Position numbers and translations under genes: made by a program
Notes under the pieces: model-generated
Databases searched by the model: none
Told to the model about the DNA's origin: nothing
Seen by the model: only the letters and a program-made list of their open reading frames with translations
Assembly (NCBI GenBank): GCA_963787205.1
Contig: CAWBCD010000006.1
Span: forward strand, 171,009-235,008
Length of the DNA stretch: 64,000 nucleotides
From: an uncultured bacterium
GTDB lineage: Bacteria > Bacteroidota > Rhodothermia > Balneolales > DATFMH01
Direction: 5' to 3'
Part shown: in pieces, positions 26,001 to 61,023 of the stretch
How positions within the stretch are numbered: position 1 is the stretch's first letter
How the letters are laid out: each line of letters begins with the position of its first letter

Positions 26001-26073
<73 letters not shown>

Positions 26074-39750: not shown

Positions 39751-42700
39751 CTACTTAATCAGCATCATCTTCCTGGTCTGGGTAAAGTTGCCAGCCTTCA
39801 GCCGATAGATGTACAACCCGCTGGGCAAGTTGTGGGCATCAAAACGTACCGAGTACGCTCCGGCGGCCTGAGTTCGATCTACCAGCCTGGCGACCATCTG
39901 TCCCAGCACATTGTATACGGTCAGACGCACATGCCTGCTGCCGGAGAGGGTGTAGCGGATCGTGGTCGTGGGGTTGAAGGGGTTGGGATAGTTCTGTCCC
40001 AGGTGATACCCGTTGGGCCGGGTCTGGATATTGCCCTGAATGCCCGTGGCAGCCAGTCCGGTGTTCTGCTACATAGTAGGTGTCCGTGGTGGGCAGCACC
40101 TTGGCATTGTCCGAACTCAGGTCGATGGTGTAACTGCCCATAGACGTGGTATCGGTGCGGGTCAGGGTCCAGCTAATGACTTTCTTTGCTCCCACGCCCA
40201 GACTGGGGATCGTAACCTGTTTCTGAGAGCCGGTCGTGGTGGCCGAATCGGTCTGCAGGGTTACCGTCACATTCGTGGCCGGGGAAGTGCCCAGGTTGGT
40301 CACTACCGCCGAGAGGGTAAAGGGCTGGCTGCTTTTGGGTTGGCTTCGTGGAGAGCGAATCCCGGCTGATGATCACATAGGGGGGAGCGGCTACCGAGGA
40401 GACCTCACCGGTCACGGTAGTGGTCTGGTTCTCCAGATCGCCCAGGTGCTTGCTTACCGAATCAGCCGAGGCGGTTAAATCCTGCAGGCTCACCGACTGT
40501 CCCAGGGCATACCCAAGCAGGTTGGCATACAGCCCGGCCCGTGCCGCCGCCCCGCCCACGTTTGCCTGGGCCAGGGACAGGTAGTGGGCCAGGAAGGTCG
40601 AATCGGAGGGAGCCAGCTGATCGGCCACCGCATCGACCGGGGCCTGGCTGAGCTGCAGCTGCTGGTCCAGGGACTGGTCCGCCTGCATCAGATCGCTGAG
40701 CTTTCCCAGGGCCTGGGATTTTTGATTGTTCCCGATCAGGGCAAGGATCTGCTGAACCAACTGGTTGTACTGGTCCACCGAGGTAGTCAGATCCTTCTGA
40801 CTTGTTTGCAGGGTCTGAGCGGTATAGCGGATATACCGCCTGCCCGACTGTTCGGGGACAATCTTCTGGAAAGTGCTCTGTTGGTCCGGGTGATACGCCA
40901 CATCGATCCCGTTGTTGGCCTCCACGGCGATCTGAGCCAGGCGCAGCCCGGGGGCGATCGCCGAGGTCAGGTAGGAGGCCAGGGACGTGCCTTTTAAAAC
41001 GCCTGTCATGGTTTCTGCCCCCCCGGCGACAACCGCTCCCACCCCGGTCTCGGAGGTCGGTGCGGCAATCTCGGCGATGAGCTGGGTGATGTTCGCGCCG
41101 GTTTCGGTAAGGTCTCCGCCGTCTTCGCCGCTCATCGGCTATCTTCTTGACCAGTTTGGTCGCTGCATTGGACTGCTCCAGCACCGAAGAGGTGGTCGTG
41201 TCGACCAGGTCGTGGCAGGCCTGGGCGGTAGCTGCCGCTGTAGTCAAAGGCATCGAGCCAGCTTCGCCGAGCGATCCAGCCCGGTCTGGGTCGCCGGCAC
41301 ATACCCGTAGGAGAGCAGGATCTCGTCGGAGGCGGTGCTGGCCAGCGCCTGGGTCTGGTCCTTGAGGATATCGCTCAGAAAATCCTTCTTCGAATCGCTC
41401 TGGAAGAAGTCCAGGGTCTTACCCACGGCCAGGGGCACATACTTGTTGTAGGGGGCTGGCAGGGCATTGGCCACCTTGTTGATGACCGGGTTCAGAAAGG
41501 CGCTGCGGACCTGACCCCGGATGCCCGTGACCAGACTGTTCACCTCATTGGCCAGTTGTTCGTCGGTATACTTCTTTGGAGGTCTTCTCCTCGGTTTTGT
41601 TCGCCAGTTTGCCGGCCAGGACATAATTGGTGATCAGCTGGGTGGTGGCCGTGCTCAGGCTGTGGCTCATCGTCGCCGCGTTGGTAAACTCGCCCTGGTA
41701 GAGGGACTGGACCATCAGGTGGCGGGCCAGGGCCTTGATGCGTTGGTGGTACACACTGTTGGTATCCGAGGCGCTCACCGCTGTGGCTCCCGTGCGCCAG
41801 TCCTGCAGCAGGGCGCCGGTGGCGGCGGGATCATAGCTGTTGACCAGGGGCTGGGGCGGGAGCAGGCCGAAGAGCACGTCCGAGGAGATGGTCAGATGGT
41901 CCAGGCCGTAGGCCCCGGTATAGGTCTGGTTGTACAGGCCCACCGGCAACCGAATGGAATAGTAGGTGGGTTTTACGGTATACTTCCAGGACAGGTGGGT
42001 GGCCTGGTTGGTCAGCTCATTGACCGCGTTGGCCCCGACCTGCAGGGTGTAGGAGGAGTCGGTCTGGTTGGGAAACTGGAAGCCCCCGTCCGCCCCGGTC
42101 GTCGCCTGGGTGTCCAGGGTTGCACCGCTGTACAGGGAAACCCCGGCCCCGGAGAGGGCGGAGGCCGGCAGGGTGCCCTTGCCCAGGGTTACATCCTCAA
42201 CGGTGCCGGTGACCTCGTTGGATAAGGCAGCCTTCAGGATATAAAACCCACTATTCTGTTCAGTCATGTAGATATATCCGCCGTTTGCGTAAACTACATT
42301 TGCAGCTCCACTATCCTCATATGTACCCACAGTAAACGGATGGGCCGGATCACTCACATCGAGGACTTGAAGGCCATCCATACCATTTTGATCCGCGTCT
42401 ATTGTGTAGGCGTATCCTCCTCTGGCAAACACTCCGTTCATGTAACCATTGGGACCTGAAAACTTAGGTATATATGAGTCCACTACCTTCGGATGGGCAG
42501 GATCGCTGACATCAATGATAGTAAGGGCACTATCTCTGGTTACATAGGCATCATTACCCGAAACCGATATAAAACTATCACCAGCAAAAGTTGGACCAAC
42601 ATTATATGAACCTATTTGCTTTGGATTCGCAGGGTCACTAACATCAATAATATGAAGTGTAACCCCTTGAAAGCCATAACCAGTACTGGCATATGTGGCG

Positions 42701-51867: not shown

Positions 51868-52797
51868 TCAATATGTTTTCGGCATACCAGAAGGTCTCAT
51901 GTCCGGATGTGAACGCCAATAAACATACGGCCCGGTAACAGGAAAGTATAAAACATCAGTAACGATATTTTTTCGTACGATGAAAACCCTTGGTACAGAA
52001 GGTGCAAATTTTTCAAAATCTCCTTTGGAAATTATAATGCTTGAAAAATTTGGGATGGTCACTTTTTCAAAATTCTCAAAGTCCTTTTTTGATCCAATTG
52101 TAATCCCAATAACCCTATCTACGGTATGAGTTCGGACGTAAGCTTTCACATTTTCAACCGTATTTAAACAATATGGGCAGGTCGTGTGGTAAGCATAAAC
52201 AATGTATGTAGAATCCGGGCTGGTATGGACATACGGTCCGAAAGGAGTCTCCGACACTTTTTTCCCTACAAAATTATTACTCTGATGAACAAAAGGCTTA
52301 ATTGAGGAAATGCCTGAAAGTACCAGTGTGATTGTCAACATCGCCCCGACAGAGTAATAGGGCCACCGCTTATTTTGAAGCCTGGGCTTAGGTACCGGTT
52401 TAAAAAAAACATATCCGGATAAAAACAGAAAAATTGCGTTTCGAACTACGATCATTGCCGGAGGCATTTTCGATAATGCAAGGCTTCCGAAGCAACCACA
52501 ATCTGTCAAACCGCTTGTGAAATATGCGAACAGGTAGACAAATGTAAAAATTAACAAGCTGATGACAGATGCCAGTGCTGTTTTACGCGAATGAAGAAAA
52601 AGAATAAAAAAGATGCCGAGGGCAATCTCAAACGGTGGGATTAATAACCCTACAAAGAAAAACTTATCAAAAATCCGGATACTTGTGATATAGCCGATAA
52701 AATTTTGAACATTTAGTAGCTTACTAAAACCGGACACAATAAAAATTACTCCCATAATCAGGGAGAATATCCTGGATAATATTGTCTGCAGCCTCAT
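51868..52797 (-). CDS. MauE/DoxX-like membrane domain fused to a thioredoxin-fold domain (CPYC)
   Basis: N-terminal 4-TM region with GFSKLLN and DCGCFGS. C-terminal domain with YAYHTTCPYCLNTVENV. Resembles a MauE-MauD type fusion. Confidence 0.7.
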   Translation of the reverse strand: MRLQTILSRIFSLIMGVIFIVSGFSKLLNVQNFIGYITSIRIFDKFFFVGLLIPPFEIALGIFFILFLHSRKTALASVISLLIFTFVYLFAYFTSGLTDCGCFGSLALSKMPPAMIVVRNAIFLFLSGYVFFKPVPKPRLQNKRWPYYSVGAMLTITLVLSGISSIKPFVHQSNNFVGKKVSETPFGPYVHTSPDSTYIVYAYHTTCPYCLNTVENVKAYVRTHTVDRVIGITIGSKKDFENFEKVTIPNFSSIIISKGDFEKFAPSVPRVFIVRKNIVTDVLYFPVTGPYVYWRSHPDMRPSGMPKTY

Positions 52798-52849
52798 TAT
52801 CTTGATGCTAAAGTTAAATATGAACGATATGCAATGGTCTTATAAAAGA

Positions 52850-52883
52850 CAAGCCATTCTATCATTATGACAGAAATGGCTTG
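52850..52883 (-). terminator. Terminator after peptide gene C
   Basis: Stem CAAGCCATT / AATGGCTTG. On the minus strand it is followed by TCTTTTAT. Confidence 0.6.
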
Positions 52884-52912: not shown

Positions 52913-53089
52913 TCAGCTTGGTAATGGGCCGCCACCGCATCCATTATTGCTGGATACGTAGCTTGCAGCTTTGTCGCAGAAGGCCTTGAATTTGGTTATA
53001 AACGTTTGAACTTCACATGAATGAAATTCTATTCGTTCTTCAAGCTCTTCCATCTCGAAAGCTTCTACAAGTTTTTCGTATTTGTCCAT
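52913..53089 (-). CDS. Small peptide C (58 aa) with shared leader motif; candidate precursor
   Basis: Hand translation: MDKYEKLVEAFEMEELEERIEFHSCEVQTFITKFKAFCDKAASYVSSNNGCGGGPLPS. Below the ORF-track cutoff. Lies 20 nt downstream of the protease gene. Confidence 0.6.
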   Translation of the reverse strand: MDKYEKLVEAFEMEELEERIEFHSCEVQTFITKFKAFCDKAASYVSSNNGCGGGPLPS

Positions 53090-53109
53090 GTTTTATTCCC
53101 CCCTTCGGA

Positions 53110-54313
53110 TCAAATTTTAGTTGAATCTAGATTAAATAACTGAAAGCCCCTGACTCGTATATACTTATTAATCCATTCATATGATTTTTTTATTAGTATA
53201 TAGTAAAACAGAGTGACCATCAGATAATTCACAATTAGCTCAGAACCTGCTAGGTGTCCATTTATCAAACCTGTAATCAACTTCCACGTCACTGCTGGAT
53301 AATTTATCACAATCGCGCCGTGTTTTGTTACTATGAAAAGTATATAGAAAATCGTTAAGAACGTATTAGAAAATGCATATATAATAAGATACCAATCTTT
53401 CCGGCTTTTCTTTCTTTTTTCCTTCATTCCAAACCACTCAAGGGATAAATCTCTGATCTGATTTGCAGAGACGCTCATCAGGTTTGGTGTCTCCAGTGCA
53501 TCGCTCAGAATCCAGTATCCGTCATACCTCATGAATGGCCACAGCTGGAACAAGGATGAAAATACGATTAGCTCGGCAGCAAGAAGCAAAAATGGTTTTC
53601 CGGTAATAAAATAAGCCGCTATGATGAAGAAATTAACAAAGAACTGGATATGTATTCCTGCAAGATTTGTAATCACCCGTTCTTTACGGGGAAGCATCCA
53701 TAGCCCAGTCACATCGGCCCAGGAAACGGGGAAAACCAAATAAAAACCAATACCGATACCGCCATGTCTTGATTTAAATTTTCTGCATGCGGAAATATGT
53801 CCCACCTCATGCAAAATAACTGAAAGGAAATAGATAAGAATGACCCATAAATAGGACCAGTCGTTGGGCGCCAACTTTACTGAGTCAGTCAGAAAAAAGG
53901 CAAAAAATACATTGGCAATTAAAAAGAGAAAGAATGCAAAGAAAAATGATCTCTTTATGGTACAGAAATTTAAATATATCCCCTAGTAATCCGGCAATAT
54001 CCTTTTTAAAAATGGTCAGACGCAATCTTAAATATGATTTTCTGGTATGTGACTCCTCTTTTGTACTAATATGGAGAACCGAACAGACAAATTGGATGAA
54101 TCCATCCAATGTGAGATCTTCACTTTCCTCATCCGTAAACTGTATGTATGCTTCCTTCCAGCTTTGTGAATTTTTGAGTATTACAACCAGCCTCTGTGTT
54201 TTATCATTAATCAAAAAATATTTCCCTTCTCCATTATGTAGAACACGGCGACTGGAATCATATTGACTTATATGAATAGAGTCCCGAAATGGTATGTAAT
54301 CCGAAGGGGTCAT
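53110..54313 (-). pseudogene. PqqD-like domain + M50-type membrane metalloprotease, copy C (one frame change near 53930-53950)
   Basis: ORF 53885..54313 carries the PqqD-like part (VLHNGEGKYFLINDKTQRLVVILKNSQSWKEAY). ORF 53110..53874 carries HEVGH and LWPFMRYDGYW. The TM segment FAFFLFLIANVFFAFFLTDSVKLAPNDW is readable in the downstream frame upstream of its start. Confidence 0.65.
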
Positions 54314-55227
54314 GAGATAAATGTACCGACTTTGTTAGCGGCCTTTTCCAGCAATTGATCGATTGTCAGAATAATTTGGCCGATTTGTTTGATATCCTGT
54401 TGTGGAAACTTTGCCAAATTATCAGATGGCAGCATATCCCAGCAATTCACGCTCTTCTCAAAATATTTTATGGCATCCCCATAAAGTTCGGTCGCAACTC
54501 CGCTGACAAAGAAATACTTAACTTTTTTCTTTGCATCCATCTGATCGATTGCAATACCCTCCCTTTTCATCCTTTTATTGAAGGAATATTGAACATGATT
54601 CCAGGAATCCCCCGCTACATCATATTTAAAATCGATGATATCAGATATTAACTTTTTCCCAAGAAAATAATTTTCTAATCCTGCCGTCAAATTCCCTTTT
54701 TCTATACCCTCGTCAGAAATCGACGAGAAAACTTCTACAGGCAGATTGAATACAACGGAAAATGGTTTTACCAGCTCTTCATATAGCTCCTTATCTATCT
54801 CTACTTTTAAGGAGCATGCTGTTTCGTAATTATCGATGTGATCATTCAAAAATGTATATGAATCTGCCAGCAGTCTATCAACAACCGATCGTTTGGCAGT
54901 AAAATAGGATGCAATTTCTTTCGTCTTTTCCTCGATTGACCATAACACTTTCCTGGCTTCAGTAGTATTATTTATGGTCATTGGCAGAGCTTTGTAATTC
55001 ACCATGAAGTACAAATACTGAAATTGCAAAAAATGAATCATGGCAATCGATTCGACTACTGCCGGATCCATATTGTCGTACAATTCGGCTATCAGATAGA
55101 TAAGCTTGCGGTGATACAGAAACTGCTTCTGAGCCTCATGAGATGTAAGTAGTTTTTGAATCCTTCGCTCAAGTATTGCCCCGGTAATCGTCTGCTGATA
55201 ATTCTGCCATGTTTTGCTAACAAGCAT
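54310..55227 (-). CDS. Unknown, predicted all-helical protein (305 aa), start/stop overlap (ATGA) with protease copy C
   Basis: No signal peptide or TM segment and no motif I can name. Has an Asp-rich stretch SDIIDFKYDVAGD. Confidence 0.6.
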   Translation of the reverse strand: MLVSKTWQNYQQTITGAILERRIQKLLTSHEAQKQFLYHRKLIYLIAELYDNMDPAVVESIAMIHFLQFQYLYFMVNYKALPMTINNTTEARKVLWSIEEKTKEIASYFTAKRSVVDRLLADSYTFLNDHIDNYETACSLKVEIDKELYEELVKPFSVVFNLPVEVFSSISDEGIEKGNLTAGLENYFLGKKLISDIIDFKYDVAGDSWNHVQYSFNKRMKREGIAIDQMDAKKKVKYFFVSGVATELYGDAIKYFEKSVNCWDMLPSDNLAKFPQQDIKQIGQIILTIDQLLEKAANKVGTFIS

Positions 55228-55447
55228 AGCTGGATATATATTAGATAATAATTACTAGTCCATAGTATCTACATCCGCGGAACCATAAGCAAATTAAAAG
55301 CATATAATAGAGTATGTTTTTGACGTTATGGCAAGACAATAGTCTTCAAATAATCGAGAGCTTCATGAGAAATTGAACAACAGGTTATTCCAGTAAAGCG
55401 GTAAATCTTATCAGATCAATCCTCGATTTTTTGAAATGGCGTATCAT

Positions 55448-55486
55448 ATAAAAAGAGCCAATCCCTTGTACAGAAATTGGCTCTTT
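55448..55486 (-). terminator. Terminator after peptide gene B
   Basis: Stem AGAGCCAAT / ATTGGCTCT. On the minus strand it is followed by TTTTTAT. Confidence 0.7.
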
Positions 55487-55509
55487 TAAAAATGCTGCTC
55501 TATATACAA

Positions 55510-55734
55510 TCAACAGCTACCCGAGCTAAAATAACTTTTCATGTTATTTATAGCATCTTTGCACCAATGATAGACCATGGAGTAGTTTGTTTTAATGTAG
55601 GTTACAAATTCCTGAAATCCACCAGAGAAATGATCAGCTACTGTTTTTAACCAGTCCTCTATCCCCCAAAAAAAGAACTCTACTCTTTCATCAAGCTCTT
55701 CTATGTAATAATTTCGACTTTTTGAATCCTCCAT
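55510..55734 (-). CDS. Small peptide B (74 aa) with shared leader motif; candidate precursor
   Basis: MEDSKSRNYYIEELDERVEFFFWGIEDWL...HWCKDAINNMKSYFSSGSC. Confidence 0.6.
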   Translation of the reverse strand: MEDSKSRNYYIEELDERVEFFFWGIEDWLKTVADHFSGGFQEFVTYIKTNYSMVYHWCKDAINNMKSYFSSGSC

Positions 55735-55847
55735 AACTCTCCTTTAAGTATATAATCTAGTATTTCATGTATAATATTTACTCTTACAATTTTTTACAGT
55801 TAGATTTTTAAAATTATCCTAAACCCGGATTTGAAAGGTTTAAAATC

Positions 55848-56858
55848 CTACAGTAGAAATACTATCAGACCAATTATAATTAGAAAAAAGGATGCGGAAT
55901 ATCCGATCAAAACCATCCTTTCTAAGGTTAAGGAATGCCAATAATCAGCTCTTTTTTTTGACACCATTTTTATGAGGAATAGCTTTAATTCACCCATGGA
56001 TGTTTTGGTAAGTTTGGGCGTATTTGTCAGATCACTTAGGCACCAGTAACCATCCAGCCTTATAAATGGCCACAACTGAAATAATGCAGCGGAACTGATC
56101 AGATAAGCACTATACAGTAGATATATAGATCTGTTCAATAGGTAAAGGCCAATTAGCAGGAAACTCATTATCAACTGCATGTAAATTCCAGCCAGGTTTG
56201 CAATAACGCGTTCTTTCTTCGGCAGCATCCAGATGCCATGGATATCAGCCCAGAATACCGGGAGTATGAGATATAGACCAATACCAACTCCGCCATATTT
56301 TCCCCCAAATTTCTTACAGGCACTGATATGCCCTAATTCATGTAAAAGAGCTGATAACACAAAAAGAATAAAAACATACAGTAATTCACGACTGCTAACC
56401 GAACTCTCAAGAATCGGATTTATCAGATATCGATAAAAAAATAATGATCCCAATCAGAGAAAGAGCAAAGATTGTGAAAAAACTCGATGGGTTATAAAGT
56501 GGTTCAAGTAACGCTGAAATCGCACCGGCTATGTTCGATGGGATCAAGGTAATTCGAAGATGAATAGATTTATGACGCTTCCTGATCTTATCGTTCGCTG
56601 CAAGTCATCACTTGTCAGGATATCCTTACCTTTTAGTGACTCCTCAACATTATTACGAAAATCGGCAAAAGTTTGGGAAATGCCTCCTCTTGTGTAAATG
56701 TAAGCTTCATATGCCTCATCCAGCGAATTTGCTTCTTTCAACACTCCCACTAACTGATAAAGTTCCTCATTAATGACAAAATATCTCTTCTTTCCATTAT
56801 GAAGGATATATTTATCATCACCATACTTGGAAATTTCAATATTGGGTGAGAGAAGCAT
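55848..56858 (-). pseudogene. PqqD-like domain + M50-type membrane metalloprotease, copy B (two frame changes: near 56590 and at a T7/A7 run at 56435-56441)
   Basis: ORF 56544..56858 is PqqD-like (YILHNGKKRYFVINEELYQLVGVLKEANSLDEAY). The middle segment KRHKSIHLRITLIPSNIAGAISALLEPLYNP.. is in a third frame. ORF 55848..56453 carries HELGH and LWPFIRLDGYW. Confidence 0.65.
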
Positions 56859-57023
56859 ACCTCAGAAATCCCATCCATAAAAGATTGGAGCATACGATGT
56901 AAATTTTCTTATATCCTCGACTCTCTAATATCTGTCTTGGCAGTAGTATTCTACTTGTTCAATCCTATTTTGCTCCTTAATACAGAAAAATTGTTACTCG
57001 TACATTTTAACGAAAGGCCAATT

Positions 57024-57058
57024 AACAAAAAAGCCATCCCTAAACTTGAGATGGCTAT
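57024..57058 (-). terminator. Terminator after peptide gene A
   Basis: Stem AGCCATC / GATGGCT. On the minus strand it is followed by T6. Confidence 0.7.
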
Positions 57059-57087
57059 AAAAATCAGATAACTAAAAGTTTATCTTT

Positions 57088-57321
57088 CTACCAGTCACCA
57101 AATCCCCAAAAACGTGTACCACTGCTATAGCTGGCACTGCTACCACACGCAGTCTTTGGCGGTTGACAACTATTTAAGAAATTATCTCCATATGACCCCC
57201 CATGATGATATGGTGTTGCACCAACAATTTGGTTAATCACTCCACTGAGAAAGAAAAACTCAACTCTATTCTCAACTTCCTCAATCTCGAATTTCGTAGC
57301 TATTTTTTTGTGTTTATTCAT
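57088..57321 (-). CDS. Small peptide A (77 aa) with shared leader motif; candidate precursor
   Basis: MNKHKKIATKFEIEEVENRVEFFFLSGVINQIVGATPYHHGGSYGDNFLNSCQPPKTACGSSASYSSGTRFWGFGDW. Confidence 0.6.
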   Translation of the reverse strand: MNKHKKIATKFEIEEVENRVEFFFLSGVINQIVGATPYHHGGSYGDNFLNSCQPPKTACGSSASYSSGTRFWGFGDW

Positions 57322-57387
57322 TGCCTTAATCTTTAATTCTAATTTTAACCCCGATAGGATAATAAGTTTTTTTTGACTGTCGTATCG

Positions 57388-58446
57388 TTAAATTTTTATA
57401 AACGTCTGTCGTTGCTCAACATATCTTAAAAAATGAATCGATATACAATTACAACCAAATAAAAAGCAAACAACAAGCAAAAGGGCATAGTTAAAACAAG
57501 CATAGATCAGTAGCATTAGATCCTTTTTTGAAAAACCCATCTTCTCATTTGTGTCCGATTCGGAAAGATAATATTTGAATATCTTCCTTATTGCGGCCGT
57601 GGACGTCTTGTTTAAGTTTGGAGTATCCAGCCAATCACTCATCAGCCAATATCCATCCAGATATACAAAGGGCCATAGTTGAAATAGTGCCGCGGAGCAG
57701 ATCACAAAACAACTTTCGAGAAACATAAGATTCTTTGTTCCCAGATATATCGCCGCAAGGAAAAGCCCTATAAGTAATTGGATGTAAATACCCGCCATAT
57801 TAATGTAGAGCCGTTCTTTTTTGGGAAGCATCCAAATTCCATGAATATCAGCCCAAAAGACTGGAAAGATCAGGTACATACCAAAACCGACCCCACCATG
57901 TCTGCCACCATATCGTTTGCAGGCGCTGATATGCCCTAATTCGTGTGCCACGACCGAGAACATAAAAAACCCGATCATATACCAGAATTGGCTTGGAGTC
58001 AGAGCGTAAGCCAGGTCAATGTACCCATAGTGAAAAAATATATAGCACGAACTCACTATGGCTAATAAAAAGACAACGGGAAACAGTTTCCTGTTATACA
58101 GGGGGGATATGAGTCGCGACAGACTACCAGCTAATCTTTCTGGTATTAAAGTAAGCCGCAAACGCACATGCTTTTTTTGCTTATGGACTAAGTCATCTCC
58201 ATCCAGCAATATTTGCTTGCCATTGAAAATTTCCCGTACATGCTCCTCAAACTCACTTGCTGATTCAATATCAGCATTTGAAACATTATACAGACGAAAA
58301 GCCTCTTCAAAGTCCTTTGATTTTTTCAAGATGTTTATCAGCGCATACGAATCCTCGTTGATAACAAAGTACCTGTTGCTTCCATTATGGAGCATATAAC
58401 TCTCTTTACCATATTTTGATAATTCAATCTGCTGCGAAACTAACAT
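57388..58446 (-). CDS. PqqD-like (RRE-like) domain fused to an M50/site-2-type membrane metalloprotease, intact copy A
   Basis: N-terminus YMLHNGSNRYFVINEDSYALINILKKSKDFEEAF.. fits the PqqD-family pattern. The membrane part has a TM-embedded HELGH and a later FQLWPFVYLDGYW (the LDG motif of M50/S2P). Confidence 0.7.
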   Translation of the reverse strand: MLVSQQIELSKYGKESYMLHNGSNRYFVINEDSYALINILKKSKDFEEAFRLYNVSNADIESASEFEEHVREIFNGKQILLDGDDLVHKQKKHVRLRLTLIPERLAGSLSRLISPLYNRKLFPVVFLLAIVSSCYIFFHYGYIDLAYALTPSQFWYMIGFFMFSVVAHELGHISACKRYGGRHGGVGFGMYLIFPVFWADIHGIWMLPKKERLYINMAGIYIQLLIGLFLAAIYLGTKNLMFLESCFVICSAALFQLWPFVYLDGYWLMSDWLDTPNLNKTSTAAIRKIFKYYLSESDTNEKMGFSKKDLMLLIYACFNYALLLVVCFLFGCNCISIHFLRYVEQRQTFIKI

Positions 58447-58497: not shown

Positions 58498-61023
58498 CTA
58501 TTTTATCAATAACATTTTTCTTGTTTGCACAAACACATGTCCGTCGGATGAATGTGCAATGATTCGATATAAATAAGTCCCGCTTGAATAAGACGCTGCA
58601 CTCCACTCATAATGATAGGTTCCTGCAGCTTGTTCAGAATTAACCAACTGAGCCACTCTCTGTCCCAAAATGTTATAAATTTCAAGTGTTACTTTGGACC
58701 TGCTGCTTAAGCTGTAATTAATATTTGTAGTTGGATTAAAAGGATTGGGATAGTTTGCCGAAAGTTCCGTTTTATCTGGTATGTTTAAAACCGGCTTCTC
58801 TATTGCCACCGTAGTTTTTGGCATAATGTGATAATTGAGAGAATTCACCGAAATCCTGCCTGAATATTCGTCAAGACTAACACCGGCAACCGAGATAACG
58901 ACATCGGCTTCTTTAGAAGCACTAATATGCAGCGTTCCCAACGTACCGGTCGAAAAGCTATCTGCTTCGGCAATTGCCAGACTAAAAACGTTCTGATCAT
59001 AATAGGTCTGATATTGTGCATTATGCCAAACACTACCCGTCGTGTCGAAGGTGACAGAGTTAATTACCCCCGCAGGCAATGCAAGCCGGACAACAAAGGA
59101 CGAGAAATGGTGTCCGCTCTGGTTATTGAGCTTCAAAACCAGGGGATTGTCACCCGAAGCAGTGGTATCACCCTTGTCTAGTTGCAGATCAACCGGGTCT
59201 GCCGGGCTGGTTGCAGGATTTCCTGTTACACTCTTAGCTGCCGAATAAACATCCGTTTCCGGACCATAATTATCGTGATTACTGTCTTTCGCAAAATATT
59301 TATCCGATCCGTCCAAATGCCTCATGATCAATGAAGCATCATAAGTCGATATCGTGCCGTCGCCTGACAGATCGGACCCGACGAGTTGATCAATATATGT
59401 ATCACCGTTTATGGCAATATTTGAAAGGATATTATTTACATCTGTCTTATCTAAGAAACCATCCTCATTGTAATCTCCATAAAGAACATCATTGTCACCA
59501 ACCAACAGGCGACTGGTTGCGGTGGTTGACGAGGATACATTAGCTGTCACAATGCCAAGGTCTGAAAGGTTCTCCCAACTCCACGGTGTCTGTATATGTA
59601 TCTGACCTGTTTCCGGGTGAGTTGTTTGAATGATCTCCTTTGTTGAACCATCTTTAAATGTTGCCAGCAAACCGACATCCATCTGATTTGATGATGAGTA
59701 CAGGCTAACCATAACGGGTCCGGTACTCGATCCTGGAACTATTTCCTGATAATTGGCCGAGAGTCTGTTGGAATAAAGCCGTAAACTGAACCCGGATGGA
59801 GGTTGATCATATTCATGAATCACTCGGGAGGTCGGATAATTCATCCGTTCCTGAAAACCATAATCAGCCGGTGACCGATGCCCCGATGCATAATGCCACA
59901 ACTCAGATTCTACAAAAGTCTTTGGAAACGTTGCGTTATAATCGTTTTCCAGCACATATGTCATGCTGTTGATATAGCTGTCATTCGTCCGGGAGATATA
60001 TGCCCATACCTTTCGCCAGAAACCAATGCCGTACTTCTGTAAATAGTATAACGCAAACGTGACCTGGTAATAACTGCCCGGATAAATCGAGTACTGTGGA
60101 TTATTAAATATCGAACTCGGGCTCTTGAGGTAGTTGTAATAATCGTTCACCGTGTCAAAGACGGCCTCTTCCATCATGACGGCATCCATTTCAAGCCAAC
60201 GGGCACTCTCTCCGGACCATCCATCATCAATATATTGGATGGCATGTTTGAACTCATGGGCAATTGTGACTTTCAGATCACCCTTTACCTTACCATCAGG
60301 ATCGGTATTCGGAGGAAAGCCGCTGAGCGCAAAATCACAGTGAACCTTCATCTCAGGGTTTCCCTGGCTGTTAATATAGGTATAGCCGTAGGTGGGGCTA
60401 TTATCATTTCCGAGTCTGGCAAAACGGATTACAAATGCCGTTGTATCCGGTATCGGATCGCTAAAGCCCATGATCTTCACTTCCGTGTCGTAGACTGAGT
60501 CGGCATACTGCCCCGCCCATTCAACGTAATCGGGAATACCATCGTTATTGGCATCAGCTGTCGGGACTGCGTCCGGACTACTCGGGTCAGTTGTATAATA
60601 CAACTTGAATTTCCCGGAAGGTGACATATATATTTGGTTATCCCCGGATCCGGCAGAAGTAAGGTAATGATTAATGATATTTTGTGTACTTTTAGAGAGT
60701 GTTTTGCGGGACAACTCGTATTCTACAACTGCTGGAGTAAAACACTTTACAGGTTGCGACTGTGAACTCTCCACCTTTAGATAGCGCGCCGGTAATTTTG
60801 AAGGGTCGAATTCACTATAAAACTGATATAACAACGCATCTTGATGACTAATTTTATTCTGCTGAAAATCCTGATCGATCCGGATAGCGACGGATGAATA
60901 CGGTTGTGGAGCATAATCAGATTGAGCCGTCACCTGAGCATGGGTAGCTAAAGGGACAACAGCGCCAATGATTAGTAGAATGATAATTTTAATATGATTA
61001 TTACGTAGGCTCATATAATTCAC
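58498..61023 (-). CDS. Secreted HExxH zinc metalloprotease with dockerin-like and cohesin-like modules and a T9SS CTD
   Basis: Signal peptide. VTIAHEFKHAIQY. Dockerin repeats DYNEDGFLDKTDVNNIL and DLSGDGTISTYDASLIMRHL. CTD NYPNPFNPTTNINYSL..GTYLYRIIA..KMLLIK. Confidence 0.75.
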   Translation of the reverse strand: MNYMSLRNNHIKIIILLIIGAVVPLATHAQVTAQSDYAPQPYSSVAIRIDQDFQQNKISHQDALLYQFYSEFDPSKLPARYLKVESSQSQPVKCFTPAVVEYELSRKTLSKSTQNIINHYLTSAGSGDNQIYMSPSGKFKLYYTTDPSSPDAVPTADANNDGIPDYVEWAGQYADSVYDTEVKIMGFSDPIPDTTAFVIRFARLGNDNSPTYGYTYINSQGNPEMKVHCDFALSGFPPNTDPDGKVKGDLKVTIAHEFKHAIQYIDDGWSGESARWLEMDAVMMEEAVFDTVNDYYNYLKSPSSIFNNPQYSIYPGSYYQVTFALYYLQKYGIGFWRKVWAYISRTNDSYINSMTYVLENDYNATFPKTFVESELWHYASGHRSPADYGFQERMNYPTSRVIHEYDQPPSGFSLRLYSNRLSANYQEIVPGSSTGPVMVSLYSSSNQMDVGLLATFKDGSTKEIIQTTHPETGQIHIQTPWSWENLSDLGIVTANVSSSTTATSRLLVGDNDVLYGDYNEDGFLDKTDVNNILSNIAINGDTYIDQLVGSDLSGDGTISTYDASLIMRHLDGSDKYFAKDSNHDNYGPETDVYSAAKSVTGNPATSPADPVDLQLDKGDTTASGDNPLVLKLNNQSGHHFSSFVVRLALPAGVINSVTFDTTGSVWHNAQYQTYYDQNVFSLAIAEADSFSTGTLGTLHISASKEADVVISVAGVSLDEYSGRISVNSLNYHIMPKTTVAIEKPVLNIPDKTELSANYPNPFNPTTNINYSLSSRSKVTLEIYNILGQRVAQLVNSEQAAGTYHYEWSAASYSSGTYLYRIIAHSSDGHVFVQTRKMLLIK

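What the first reader, a model, noticed from the sequence alone, without database searches (positions are those of the whole stretch)
52913..57321. Three small ORFs share a leader-like motif [FY]-x-[IM]-E-E-[LV]-[ED]-[EN]-R-[VI]-E-F and have divergent Cys-containing C-termini
The aligned leader regions are A: KFEIEEVENRVEFFFL, B: YYIEELDERVEFFFW and C: AFEMEELEERIEFHSC. Downstream, the sequences are unrelated. All contain 2-3 cysteines (A: ..NSCQPPKTACGSS.., B: ..HWCKDA...SSGSC, C: ..HSC..FC..NGCGGG..), and two end in Gly/Ser-rich tails. A conserved N-terminus with a hypervariable C-terminus is the classic precursor-peptide signature. Peptide C is shorter than 60 aa and is absent from the supplied ORF track.
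Basis: seen in the sequence. Interest (0 to 1): 0.75.

Follow-up and report, generated by a model that had tools for sequence, protein, structure and literature searches.

The report
Precursor peptides with dedicated membrane proteases
The three small ORFs are real genes for leader-bearing precursor peptides, each encoded beside its own membrane protease that carries a leader-binding domain. The locus is a stripped-down relative of bacterial clusters that attach cyclised terpene groups to peptides.

Summary
Three minus-strand ORFs (77, 74 and 58 aa) share x-[IM]-E-E-[LV]-[ED]-[EN]-R-[VI]-E-F; about 1e-8 such matches are expected per window by chance.

They are real genes. Orthologues in related metagenomes show dN/dS of 0.01-0.25 in the leader and 0-0.45 in the core.

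Each peptide lies directly downstream of a paralogous membrane protein. That protein has an N-terminal RiPP-recognition-element (RRE)-like domain fused to a site-2-type zinc protease, as in the daptide leader peptidase.

The motif recurs beside homologous proteases in more than 20 independent contigs. These include distant Bacteroidota-like clusters where the neighbour is a ~640-aa prenyltransferase-terpene-cyclase fusion (ChrPC type) and the peptide reads ...EELEER[VIM]EF-x-x-W.

In the window's Balneolales-like lineage the maturase is only a 305-aa prenyltransferase-fold protein. It lacks the cyclase domain and the key catalytic and Trp-binding residues. Its cognate peptide C has an invariant Cys where the others have Trp.

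A MauE-thioredoxin membrane protein follows peptide C. All three protease genes carry indels of uncertain origin.

Verdict: RiPP-type precursors, interpretation supported; a new variant of a known kind. The final chemistry is unknown; leader removal plus disulfides is the most likely outcome.

The parts
57388..58446 (-). Protease 1: N-terminal RRE-like domain fused to an intramembrane site-2-type zinc metalloprotease (HELGH ... LDG). A +1 indel near 57480 changes the last ~13 residues relative to the orthologue P0001.
   Evidence: NCBIfam daptide_HExxH E 8e-34 over residues 15-327 (117 bits, cut-off 300) and YydH/LiaK E 4e-21. Pfam Peptidase_M50 sub-threshold. AF2 model shows beta3-alpha3 then TM helices. 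Foldseek hits SpoIVFB and the TbiB1/leader complex. The profile hits mjS2P 3b4r at E 9e-5. C-terminal frame checked.
57088..57321 (-). Peptide A (77 aa): leader ...KFEIEEVENRVEF, then a 55-aa core with a conserved C-x6-C loop and a Trp/Gly-rich tail ending in Trp.
   Evidence: Orthologues in L001 and L005 give dN/dS 0.17-0.25 (leader) and 0.21-0.45 (core). An identical protein, P0019, is on record from NCBI/ENA.
57032..57056 (-). Intrinsic-terminator-like hairpin plus T-run after peptide A.
   Evidence: 9 pairs, 5 G-C, TTTTTT tail.
55848..56858 (-). Protease 2: paralogue of protease 1, interrupted by a +2 indel (~56601) and a +1 indel (~56415). Together these restore the frame but leave a stop codon in between. 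Removing them gives an uninterrupted 334-aa protein.
   Evidence: All three segments show omega 0.10-0.33 against the intact L005 orthologue.
55510..55734 (-). Peptide B (74 aa): leader ...YYIEELDERVEF, then a core FFW... predicted to be amphipathic, with Cys as the last residue. An AAGGAG sequence lies 5 nt upstream of the ATG.
   Evidence: 100% aa identity to L005 pepB with 5 synonymous changes.
55448..55483 (-). Hairpin (9-bp stem, 12-nt loop) plus T-run after peptide B.
   Evidence: Read directly from the sequence. Its loop is too long for the scanner used.
54310..55227 (-). 305-aa 'P-like' protein with a trans-isoprenyl-diphosphate-synthase fold, homologous to the prenyltransferase domain of ~640-aa P-C fusion maturases. 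It lacks the cyclase domain, the FARM aspartates, the GKS lysine, the Gln before SARM and the first SARM Asp.
   Evidence: AF2 pLDDT 88. Foldseek hits polyprenyl synthases at TM 0.60-0.66, E 3e-5. Profile search and domain content of relatives. Motif comparison. Omega 0.16 against L001.
53110..54313 (-). Protease 3: the 400-aa type that accompanies the P-like gene and peptide C in all related genomes. Interrupted here by a +1 indel near 53925, which splits it into 142-aa and 254-aa ORFs.
   Evidence: Omega 0.05-0.22 against intact orthologues in L085 and L002.
52913..53089 (-). Peptide C (58 aa): leader MDKYEKLVEAFEMEELEERIEF, then a 36-aa core with three invariant cysteines. The first Cys lies 3 residues after EF, where PC-type peptides have Trp.
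   Evidence: Leader dN/dS is 0.01-0.03 while synonymous sites are saturated.
52844..52883 (-). Hairpin (9-bp stem, 16-nt loop) plus T-rich tail after peptide C.
   Evidence: Read directly from the sequence. Not reported by the scanner.
51868..52797 (-). MauE-domain membrane protein fused to a thioredoxin-like domain with a C-P-Y-C motif. It is the candidate disulfide-forming partner; its membership in the system is inferred only.
   Evidence: Pfam MauE E 1e-18. CxxC seen in the translation. Adjacent to a type-C peptide in 7 loci of the lineage and absent from PC-type loci.
58498..61023 (-). 841-aa secreted protein with a HEFKH zincin motif and a T9SS sorting tail, directly upstream. It is a syntenic neighbour whose membership is uncertain.

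Best explanation
The three ORFs are genuine precursor peptides of a RiPP-type system built from three tandem paralogous cassettes, each consisting of a protease gene followed by a peptide gene.

Shown: each protease has an N-terminal winged-helix domain of the RRE (PqqD-like) type fused to a site-2-protease-type intramembrane zinc metalloprotease. This is the architecture of the daptide leader peptidase.

Inferred: the shared acidic motif ...[FY]-x-[IM]-E-E-[LV]-x-x-R-[VI]-E-F is the leader recognition sequence. The cytoplasmic RRE binds it and presents the peptide to the membrane-embedded active site. The peptide is then cut at or just after the R-x-E-F boundary, releasing cores of 36-55 residues rich in aromatic residues, Gly and Cys.

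Inferred, more weakly: the cores reach the periplasm, where their conserved cysteines are oxidised, plausibly by the MauE-thioredoxin membrane protein encoded next to peptide C. The products would act as secreted or envelope peptides in competition or signalling.

Shown: cassette 3 (P-like gene, 400-aa protease, peptide C) is the ancestral-type module. It is homologous to Bacteroidota-like clusters in which a ~640-aa prenyltransferase-terpene-cyclase fusion (ChrPC type) sits with the same protease and with peptides reading ...EELEER[VIM]EF-x-x-W.

Inferred: in the window's lineage the maturase has lost the cyclase domain and the residues that bind prenyl diphosphate and recognise Trp, and the acceptor Trp has become Cys. 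Canonical Trp prenylation and cyclisation therefore probably no longer occur, and the 305-aa protein is a repurposed enzyme or a peptide-binding pseudoenzyme.
For: Motif far beyond chance.

Coding constraint with the leader evolving 5-15 times more slowly than the core.

Protease family assignment: daptide_HExxH at E 8e-34 covering the N-domain, and YydH/LiaK at E 4e-21. HExxH and the LDG aspartate are invariant in 11 homologues. The profile hits mjS2P.

The AF2 N-domain has beta3-alpha3 topology. It matches lasso RRE/leader complexes 5v1u and 6jx3 at target-TM 0.61-0.67 and probability 0.9-1.0, and also SkfB and LynD RREs. The N-domain of the distant homologue P0011 hits Pfam PqqD at E 8e-4.

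The daptide paper describes RRE-S2P fusions, several precursors per cluster and an acidic leader motif next to the cleavage site.

Co-occurrence of motif and protease across lineages and GC contents, with Fisher p = 2e-8.

The peptide genes each have an SD-like site and their own terminator hairpin.

The P-like protein has a trans-IDS fold. Its relatives are P+C fusions whose C half matches MstE/prenylcyclase at E 1e-23. The review PMC13290415 describes ChrPC as a trans-IDS-like P domain plus a cyclase domain that modifies an internal Trp.

Loss of D76, D84, K156, Q192 and D195 in the window's clade. Cys in 11/11 type-C peptides versus Trp in 13/13 PC-type peptides at position +3.

MauE-Trx lies next to a type-C peptide in 7 loci. 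An S2P-clan leader peptidase working with a dedicated disulfide oxidoreductase has precedent in TMcin.
Against: There is no experimental evidence of cleavage, export or modification, and the cleavage site is only an analogy with daptides.

The window's own N-domains do not reach Pfam PqqD. The whole-protein Foldseek E-values are weak (0.06-1), and the model has pLDDT 66-85 in that region.

All three protease genes carry indels in this assembly, and two are split by them. The locus could therefore be partly inactive.

No transporter gene lies in the cluster.

The MauE-Trx link rests on synteny within one lineage, and a hairpin separates that gene from peptide C.

One locus, L026, has a motif peptide with no protease in the 13 kb held.

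The primary ChrPC paper could not be read. Identity of the ~640-aa family with ChrPC is therefore inferred from the review's description of the domains.
Confidence: 0.72

Rival explanations
1. The peptides are still lipidated. The 305-aa P-like protein would remain an active prenyltransferase acting on Trp (the +3 Trp of peptide B, or the C-terminal Trp of peptide A) or, in a new reaction, on the +3 Cys of peptide C. The products would then be prenylated lipopeptides.
For: The protein has the trans-IDS fold, and its family is strongly conserved, with omega 0.16. D196, D199 and D203 of the SARM region are retained. ComQ works with only one of the two Asp-rich motifs, and PalQ is specific for a C-terminal Trp; peptide A ends in ...GDW. 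Peptide B has Trp at +3, like the PC-type peptides. The clade-specific invariant residues H39, H65 and C138 could form a new site.
Against: The motif lost here is FARM, which binds the prenyl donor, together with the GKS lysine. The Gln and the first SARM Asp that recognise the indole are also lost. The cognate peptide C in the window has no Trp at all. All characterised trans-IDS-like peptide prenyltransferases target Trp.
Confidence: 0.17
2. The locus is a decaying remnant. The protease genes are pseudogenes, and the peptides are no longer processed or no longer useful in this strain.
For: There are four indels in about 3.2 kb of protease coding sequence and none in about 6.6 kb of neighbouring genes; chance concentration gives p of about 0.01. 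Two of the indels are not in homopolymers. In L005 one protease is also called as two genes of 95 and 244 aa.
Against: Every segment, read in its proper frame, shows omega 0.05-0.33 against intact orthologues, so any inactivation is very recent. The peptides, the P-like gene and the MauE-Trx gene are intact and constrained. A related long-read MAG, L004, shows similar breaks in another gene, which is typical of assembly indel errors. Split RRE and protease genes are functional in lasso-peptide systems (B1/B2; established knowledge; structures 5v1u and 6jx3).
Confidence: 0.12
3. The small proteins are substrates of regulated intramembrane proteolysis, comparable to anti-sigma factors or other signalling substrates, rather than natural-product precursors.
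For: Site-2 proteases classically cleave regulatory membrane proteins, and the top structural hit is the SpoIVFB/pro-sigmaK complex.
Against: The peptides have no transmembrane segment or DNA-binding or sigma-binding domain. No sigma factor gene lies in the cluster. The closest protease families are RiPP maturation proteases. The same leader occurs in clusters with a prenyltransferase-cyclase, or with a radical-SAM enzyme and glycosyltransferases.
Confidence: 0.04
4. The similarity is chance or non-coding repetition, and the ORFs are not genes.
For: The ORFs are short, and peptide C is below common gene-calling thresholds.
Against: Expected chance matches are 9e-9 against 3 observed. dN/dS is far below 1 while synonymous sites are saturated. 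About 20 homologous peptide clusters are on record.
Confidence: 0.01

Closest known systems
ChrPC-type RiPPs with polycyclic isoprenoid moieties (Hubrich et al., Chem 2024, as summarised in PMC13290415)
   Same: The window's 305-aa protein is homologous to the P domain of ~640-aa P-C fusions. Those fusions sit next to homologues of the same RRE-S2P protease and next to peptides with the same leader, F-x-[IV]-E-E-L-E-E-R-[VIM]-E-F.
   Different: The window has no cyclase domain and no FARM aspartates, GKS lysine, pre-SARM Gln or first SARM Asp. The acceptor Trp is replaced by Cys in the cognate peptide. There are two extra protease-peptide cassettes with long, unrelated cores, and a MauE-thioredoxin neighbour. 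I could not read the primary paper, so I do not know whether it already reports the leader motif and the protease.
Daptides (MpaA/MpaP, DapA/DapP; Ren et al. 2023)
   Same: An RRE is fused N-terminally to an intramembrane site-2 protease that removes the leader. There are several precursor genes per cluster and a short acidic leader motif.
   Different: The protease scores 117 bits against a cut-off of 300. The leader motif differs (ELExMEAP in daptides). There is no invariant C-terminal Thr, no MpaB/C/D/M homologues and no ABC transporter.
ComQ/ComX and PalQ/PalX (trans-IDS-like peptide Trp prenyltransferases)
   Same: A protein of about 300 aa with the isoprenoid-synthase fold is encoded next to a small precursor peptide, and one of the two Asp-rich motifs is degenerate.
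   Different: ComQ keeps FARM and loses SARM, whereas here FARM is lost and SARM is only partly kept. The Trp-recognising Gln is absent, and the cognate peptide has no Trp in the window.
TMcins (TmcA/TmcP/TmcD; bioRxiv 2026, PMC13252029)
   Same: The leader is removed by an S2P-clan intramembrane metalloprotease, and universally conserved cysteines are oxidised by a dedicated, cluster-encoded thiol oxidoreductase.
   Different: TmcP belongs to DUF3267/PF11667 and has no RRE. The precursor contains a transmembrane helix. The oxidoreductase is DsbA-like rather than MauE-Trx. An ABC transporter is present. The hosts are Gram-positive.
Epipeptides (YydF/EpeX with YydH/LiaK protease)
   Same: It is the second-best NCBIfam match of the proteases (E 4e-21). 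A YydFGHIJ-like cluster, L011, was pulled in by the protease profile.
   Different: The score is below the cut-off (76 against 225). There is no radical-SAM epimerase and no ABC transporter next to the peptides.
Lasso-peptide B1/B2 (RRE plus leader protease)
   Same: The N-domain model superposes on B1 RRE proteins solved with their leader peptides. An RRE paired with a leader protease, fused or split, is the same logic.
   Different: The lasso protease is a soluble cysteine protease. There is no lasso cyclase here.

Membership tests
RiPP precursor peptide (generic) | Small ribosomal ORF with a conserved N-terminal leader and a more variable core | tested here: met
   E14, E15, R19 and E21 are invariant in 14 peptides. 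Leader dN is 5-15 times lower than core dN.
RiPP precursor peptide (generic) | Encoded next to a leader-binding (RRE) protein and/or a leader peptidase | tested here: met
   Each peptide lies directly downstream of an RRE-S2P gene. Co-occurrence holds across more than 20 contigs.
RiPP precursor peptide (generic) | Core carries an enzymatic post-translational modification | not testable with these tools
   This needs mass spectrometry. The only candidate enzymes are a degenerate P-like protein and a MauE-Trx protein.
Daptide | RRE-fused intramembrane metalloprotease of the daptide_HExxH family (NF041824) | tested here: not met
   Related at E 8e-34, but 117 bits against a curated cut-off of 300.
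Daptide | Leader motif ELExMEAP and invariant C-terminal Thr | tested here: not met
   The peptides end in W, C and S, and the motif is different.
Daptide | MpaB/C/D/M tailoring enzymes (oxidative decarboxylase pair, aminotransferase, methyltransferase) | tested here: not met
   No such Pfam or NCBIfam hits among the ten cluster proteins.
ChrPC-type polycyclic-isoprenoid RiPP | Fused prenyltransferase-terpene cyclase maturase | tested here: not met
   The window protein is 305 aa with the P fold only. Relatives of ~640 aa carry the MstE-like C domain.
ChrPC-type polycyclic-isoprenoid RiPP | Intact FARM, and Gln plus SARM, in the P domain | tested here: not met
   V76, T84, F156, K192 and S195 stand in place of D, D, K, Q and D, which are 85-90% conserved in the wider family.
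ChrPC-type polycyclic-isoprenoid RiPP | Internal acceptor Trp in the core | tested here: inconclusive
   Position +3 is Trp in 13/13 PC-type peptides. It is Cys in peptide C, Trp in peptide B and Leu in peptide A.
ChrPC-type polycyclic-isoprenoid RiPP | Homology of leader and protease with PC-type clusters | tested here: met
   L012-L015, L017, L022, L041, L052 and L072 carry the same leader and protease homologues at E 1e-55 to 1e-83.
ChrPC-type polycyclic-isoprenoid RiPP | Sequence identity of the ~640-aa family with the published ChrPC | not tested
ComQ-type Trp prenyltransferase | FARM retained for prenyl-diphosphate binding | tested here: not met
   No acidic residue lies in the FARM helix of the window protein. 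The ComQ features are taken from PMC10853753.
Epipeptide (YydF) system | YydH/LiaK protease above cut-off, plus a radical-SAM epimerase | tested here: not met
   76 bits against a cut-off of 225. The only radical-SAM gene nearby is a HemW-like housekeeping gene, syntenic outside the cluster.
TMcin | DUF3267 (PF11667) protease and a transmembrane helix in the precursor | tested here: not met
   No PF11667 hit. The peptides have no hydrophobic stretch long enough for a TMH.
Site-2 protease (MEROPS clan MM) | HExxH in a TM helix plus a distal Asp in an xDG motif preceded by Pro | tested here: met
   H168, E169, H172, P259 and D264-G265 are invariant in 11 homologues. The profile hits mjS2P 3b4r, and the structure matches SpoIVFB.
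RRE (PqqD-like) domain | Three-stranded sheet followed by three helices (winged helix) that binds leaders | tested here: inconclusive
   Topology is met. The model superposes on TbiB1 at target-TM 0.64-0.67. Pfam PqqD is reached only by the distant homologue P0011, at E 8e-4. Binding was not tested.

The most novel reading that the evidence does not exclude
In this Balneolales-type lineage, a trans-IDS-fold peptide prenyltransferase may have been rebuilt into an enzyme that acts on cysteine. The Trp-recognising Gln/Asp pair and the FARM site were replaced, clade-specific invariant His/His/Cys residues appeared, and the acceptor residue of the cognate peptide switched from invariant Trp to invariant Cys. 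The 305-aa protein would then install a new modification on Cys(+3) of peptide C, for example S-prenylation by a non-canonical mechanism or another thiol chemistry. That would be the first bacterial RiPP cysteine modification by an isoprenoid-synthase-fold enzyme.
Probability: 0.12. Interest if true: 0.8.

Novelty: new variant of a known kind. Interest (0 to 1): 0.5.

Why it matters
The finding gives a defined recognition motif, F-x-[IV]-E-E-L-E-E-R-[VIM]-E-F, for a family of RRE-fused intramembrane leader peptidases outside the daptides. That motif can be used directly for genome mining and for leader-guided peptide engineering.

It links three things that are usually treated apart: the site-2-type RiPP proteases, the recently described prenyltransferase-cyclase maturases, and a set of long Cys-rich and aromatic-rich peptides from uncultured Balneolota.

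The window's lineage is a natural experiment. The maturase lost its catalytic and substrate-recognition residues at the same time as the acceptor Trp became Cys. This either marks the birth of a pseudoenzyme or chaperone from a RiPP maturase, or points to new cysteine chemistry.

The protease-plus-peptide cassettes, which duplicate and appear to be exchanged between strains, suggest a modular way of diversifying secreted peptides.

Tried and rejected
- **Source contig:** exact look-ups of the window's protease 1, and of the identical 305-aa protein P0012, found no contig on record. The source assembly could not be inspected for read support of the indels.
- **Pfam PqqD on the window's N-domains:** no hit, only noise. 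The RRE assignment therefore rests on structure and on homology to the daptide protease.
- **L006 ORF 1-1059 as a P-domain homologue:** rejected. hhalign probability was 0.1%, and the ORF is a sigma-54-type regulator.
- **PDB sequence search with the 305-aa protein:** nothing significant. Only the fold search was informative.
- **MauE-Trx outside the lineage:** no homologue in any PC-type or other motif-bearing locus. This leaves no independent co-occurrence support.
- **Daptide, epipeptide and TMcin membership:** considered and rejected on defining features (see the membership table).
- **Primary ChrPC paper (PMC11484575, PMID 39429465):** not held. Searches for 'ChrPC' and 'steromaze' returned only citing papers.
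- **Rfam scan of the window:** only one tRNA, and nothing in the cluster.
- **Long-standing pseudogenes:** rejected on dN/dS.
- **Model coordinates:** not available in the sandbox. Spatial clustering of H39, H65 and C138 could not be checked.

Full report
**Observation.** The minus strand of window 52913-57321 carries three small ORFs exactly as described: A 57088-57321 (77 aa), B 55510-55734 (74 aa) and C 52913-53089 (58 aa). All three contain x-[IM]-E-E-[LV]-[ED]-[EN]-R-[VI]-E-F. The strict pattern is expected 9e-9 times per six-frame translation of the window and occurs 3 times. A loose version is expected 0.02 times, occurs 3 times, and hits nothing else in the 64 kb. Each ORF has an SD-like sequence upstream and is followed by a hairpin plus T-run. 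One part of the description is overstated. The C-terminal halves are not unrelated, because B and C (and weakly A) share a C-terminal S-Y-x-S-G-x-x-C motif.

**Anatomy of the locus.** Reading 5' to 3' on the minus strand, the order is as follows:
- a T9SS-tailed 841-aa zincin-motif protein;
- protease 1 (352 aa), then peptide A;
- protease 2, then peptide B;
- a 305-aa protein;
- protease 3, then peptide C;
- a MauE-thioredoxin fusion membrane protein;
- housekeeping genes (a hydrolase and a HemW-like radical-SAM gene).

DNA repeats confirm a threefold paralogous cassette. The region has 36-38% GC against 42-48% in its flanks.

**The proteases.** The three proteases match NCBIfam 'daptide biosynthesis intramembrane metalloprotease' (E 8e-34 to 2e-25) and 'YydH/LiaK epipeptide maturation metalloprotease'. 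Both matches fall well below the curated cut-offs, so these proteins are relatives and not members. HExxH, a Pro and an LDG aspartate are invariant in 11 homologues. The profile hits the M. jannaschii site-2 protease at E 9e-5. An AF2 model of protease 1 (pLDDT 74) starts with three strands and three helices, followed by TM helices. Foldseek matches SpoIVFB for the membrane part. For the N-domain it matches lasso-peptide RRE proteins solved with their leader peptides (TbiB1, target-TM 0.64-0.67, probability 1.0), and also the SkfB and LynD RREs. This is the architecture used to discover daptides: an RRE fused N-terminally to an intramembrane site-2 protease, several short precursors per cluster, and an acidic leader motif next to the cleavage site.

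**Are the ORFs genes?** Homologues of protease 1 are rare, with 11 found in 5.8e9 proteins. Their contigs are syntenic with the window and carry orthologous peptides. Between orthologues, the type-C leader has dN/dS of 0.01-0.03 while synonymous sites are saturated. Cores have dN/dS of 0-0.45. Window pepB differs from L005 pepB by 5 synonymous and 0 non-synonymous changes. A profile search with the peptides finds about 20 clusters, all carrying the motif. The subtypes are:
- A: a C-x6-C loop with Trp/Gly-rich or His-rich tails;
- B: Cys as the last residue;
- C: 51-65 aa with three invariant Cys;
- D and E: longer forms.

The leader is therefore strongly constrained. The cores diverge between paralogues but are constrained within each type.

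**Wider family.** The 305-aa protein has no Pfam or NCBIfam hit but gives a confident AF2 model (pLDDT 88). The model has the trans-isoprenyl diphosphate synthase fold (TM 0.60-0.66, E 3e-5). A profile search of 1.8e9 representatives finds 82 relatives. Most are about 640 aa, with this domain at the N-terminus. Their C-terminal alpha/alpha toroid hits SQHop_cyclase and Prenyltrans in Pfam and matches the monodomain terpene cyclases MstE and 'prenylcyclase' at E 1e-23.

The genomic contexts of four such proteins are the same. Each has the P-C fusion, a ~400-aa RRE-S2P protease, and one or two peptides of about 55 aa with the leader F-x-[IV]-E-E-L-E-E-R-V-E-F. A 2026 review describes ChrPC as a fusion of a trans-IDS-like prenyltransferase domain, which modifies an internal Trp with C10-C20 donors, and a cyclase domain that cyclises the prenyl group. 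It describes MstE as the model for such cyclase domains (citing Hubrich et al. 2024). I infer that the ~640-aa family is of this type. The primary paper was not available.

**Unbiased test.** I scanned metagenome contigs for the back-translated motif. Among the hits, 12 loci carry it near the N-terminus of a small ORF. Ten of these have an RRE-S2P homologue on the same contig, and seven also have a P or P-C homologue. One of the two exceptions is a 1-kb contig. None of the 33 loci with the motif inside a large protein has either gene (Fisher p = 2e-8). A high-GC cluster, L006, uses the same leader (DIEELEQRLEL) and a 26%-identical protease together with a radical-SAM/SPASM enzyme and glycosyltransferases. 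L039 is a bare protease-plus-peptide cassette, like window cassettes 1 and 2. The motif therefore travels with the protease and not with any one tailoring enzyme. This is what is expected of an RRE recognition sequence.

**What is special here.** In the wider family the P domain keeps FARM-like aspartates (positions 76 and 84), a GKS lysine, and Q-x-x-D-D-x-x-D-F-x-x-D. According to the review, the Gln and the first SARM Asp recognise the Trp indole. The window's clade has V76, T84, F156, K192 and S195, and it has no cyclase domain. In parallel, the residue three positions after ...R-x-E-F is Trp in 13/13 PC-type peptides and Cys in 11/11 type-C peptides. Type-C peptides are the ones always encoded with the P-like gene. 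Protease 3, the 400-aa type, is slightly closer to PC-cluster proteases than proteases 1 and 2 are. Cassette 3 therefore looks ancestral, and cassettes 1 and 2 look like lineage-specific duplications. MauE-thioredoxin homologues occur only in this lineage and always next to a type-C peptide. MauE and MauD are needed for disulfide-rich methylamine dehydrogenase maturation (established knowledge). TMcins give a precedent for an S2P-clan leader peptidase working with a dedicated disulfide oxidoreductase.

**Integrity.** All three protease genes carry indels relative to their orthologues:
- protease 1: +1 near 57480, which alters the C-terminus;
- protease 2: +2 near 56601 and +1 near 56415;
- protease 3: +1 near 53925.

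Removing the indels restores full-length proteins. Every segment shows omega 0.05-0.33 against intact orthologues. The breaks are therefore either assembly errors or very recent events. Their concentration in the protease genes is unexplained.

**Conclusion.** These are leader-bearing precursor peptides, each paired with an RRE-fused intramembrane leader peptidase. The organism is Balneolales-like, judging from the MAG titles and the lineage. The system is not a daptide, epipeptide or TMcin. It is a reduced derivative of the prenyltransferase-cyclase RiPP family, and canonical Trp prenylation is probably lost. The most likely products are leader-cleaved, disulfide-containing peptides. The role of the conserved P-like protein and the export route are open questions.

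Noticed in passing
window 40001-42000: A segment with 61% GC lies in a window that is otherwise 38-51% GC. It has long overlapping ORFs on both strands.
   Followed up: no
window 58498-61023 (-): An 841-aa protein with a HEFKH zincin motif, dockerin-like repeats and a T9SS sorting tail lies directly upstream of the cluster in all syntenic loci. It could be an extracellular processing protease of the system or only a neighbour.
   Followed up: partly
window 55510-58446 compared with L001 and L005: The relationships are mosaic. Cassette 1 is closest to L001 (protease 94% aa identity). Peptide B is identical in protein sequence to that of L005, with 5 synonymous changes, while L001's peptide B is only about 55% identical. 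This suggests that cassettes are exchanged between strains.
   Followed up: partly
P0032, P0036 (type-A homologues): Two type-A peptides end in natural runs of six or seven histidines, which may bind metal.
   Followed up: no
L006 1-6877: A high-GC cluster contains a sigma-54-type regulator, a squalene-hopene-cyclase-like (alpha/alpha toroid) protein, a radical-SAM/SPASM enzyme, a 51-aa peptide (…DIEELEQRLEL…CWDFSC…), a glycosyltransferase and an RRE-S2P protease. This is a different candidate RiPP class that uses the same leader/protease pair.
   Followed up: partly
L039 3427-4580: A stand-alone protease-plus-peptide cassette encodes a 90-aa peptide with seven Trp. No P or P-C gene lies in the 3.4 kb upstream.
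   Followed up: partly
L026 2678-2815 (-): A peptide with the leader and EFGSW lies beside CarboxypepD_reg, M1-peptidase and ABC genes. No protease or P-C gene is present in the 13 kb held. It is the only real exception to the co-occurrence.
   Followed up: partly
L004 6359-9000: The orthologue of the T9SS-tailed protein is broken into several frames in this 2.4-Mb MAG contig. This is typical of long-read indel errors and is relevant to how the window's own indels are judged.
   Followed up: no
L011 2049-5176: A YydFGHIJ-like cluster (ABC transporter, radical-SAM enzyme, M50-like protease) was pulled in by the protease profile. It shows how close the family is to epipeptide proteases.
   Followed up: no
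window 26001-26073 (+): A tRNA gene is the only Rfam hit in the window.
   Followed up: no
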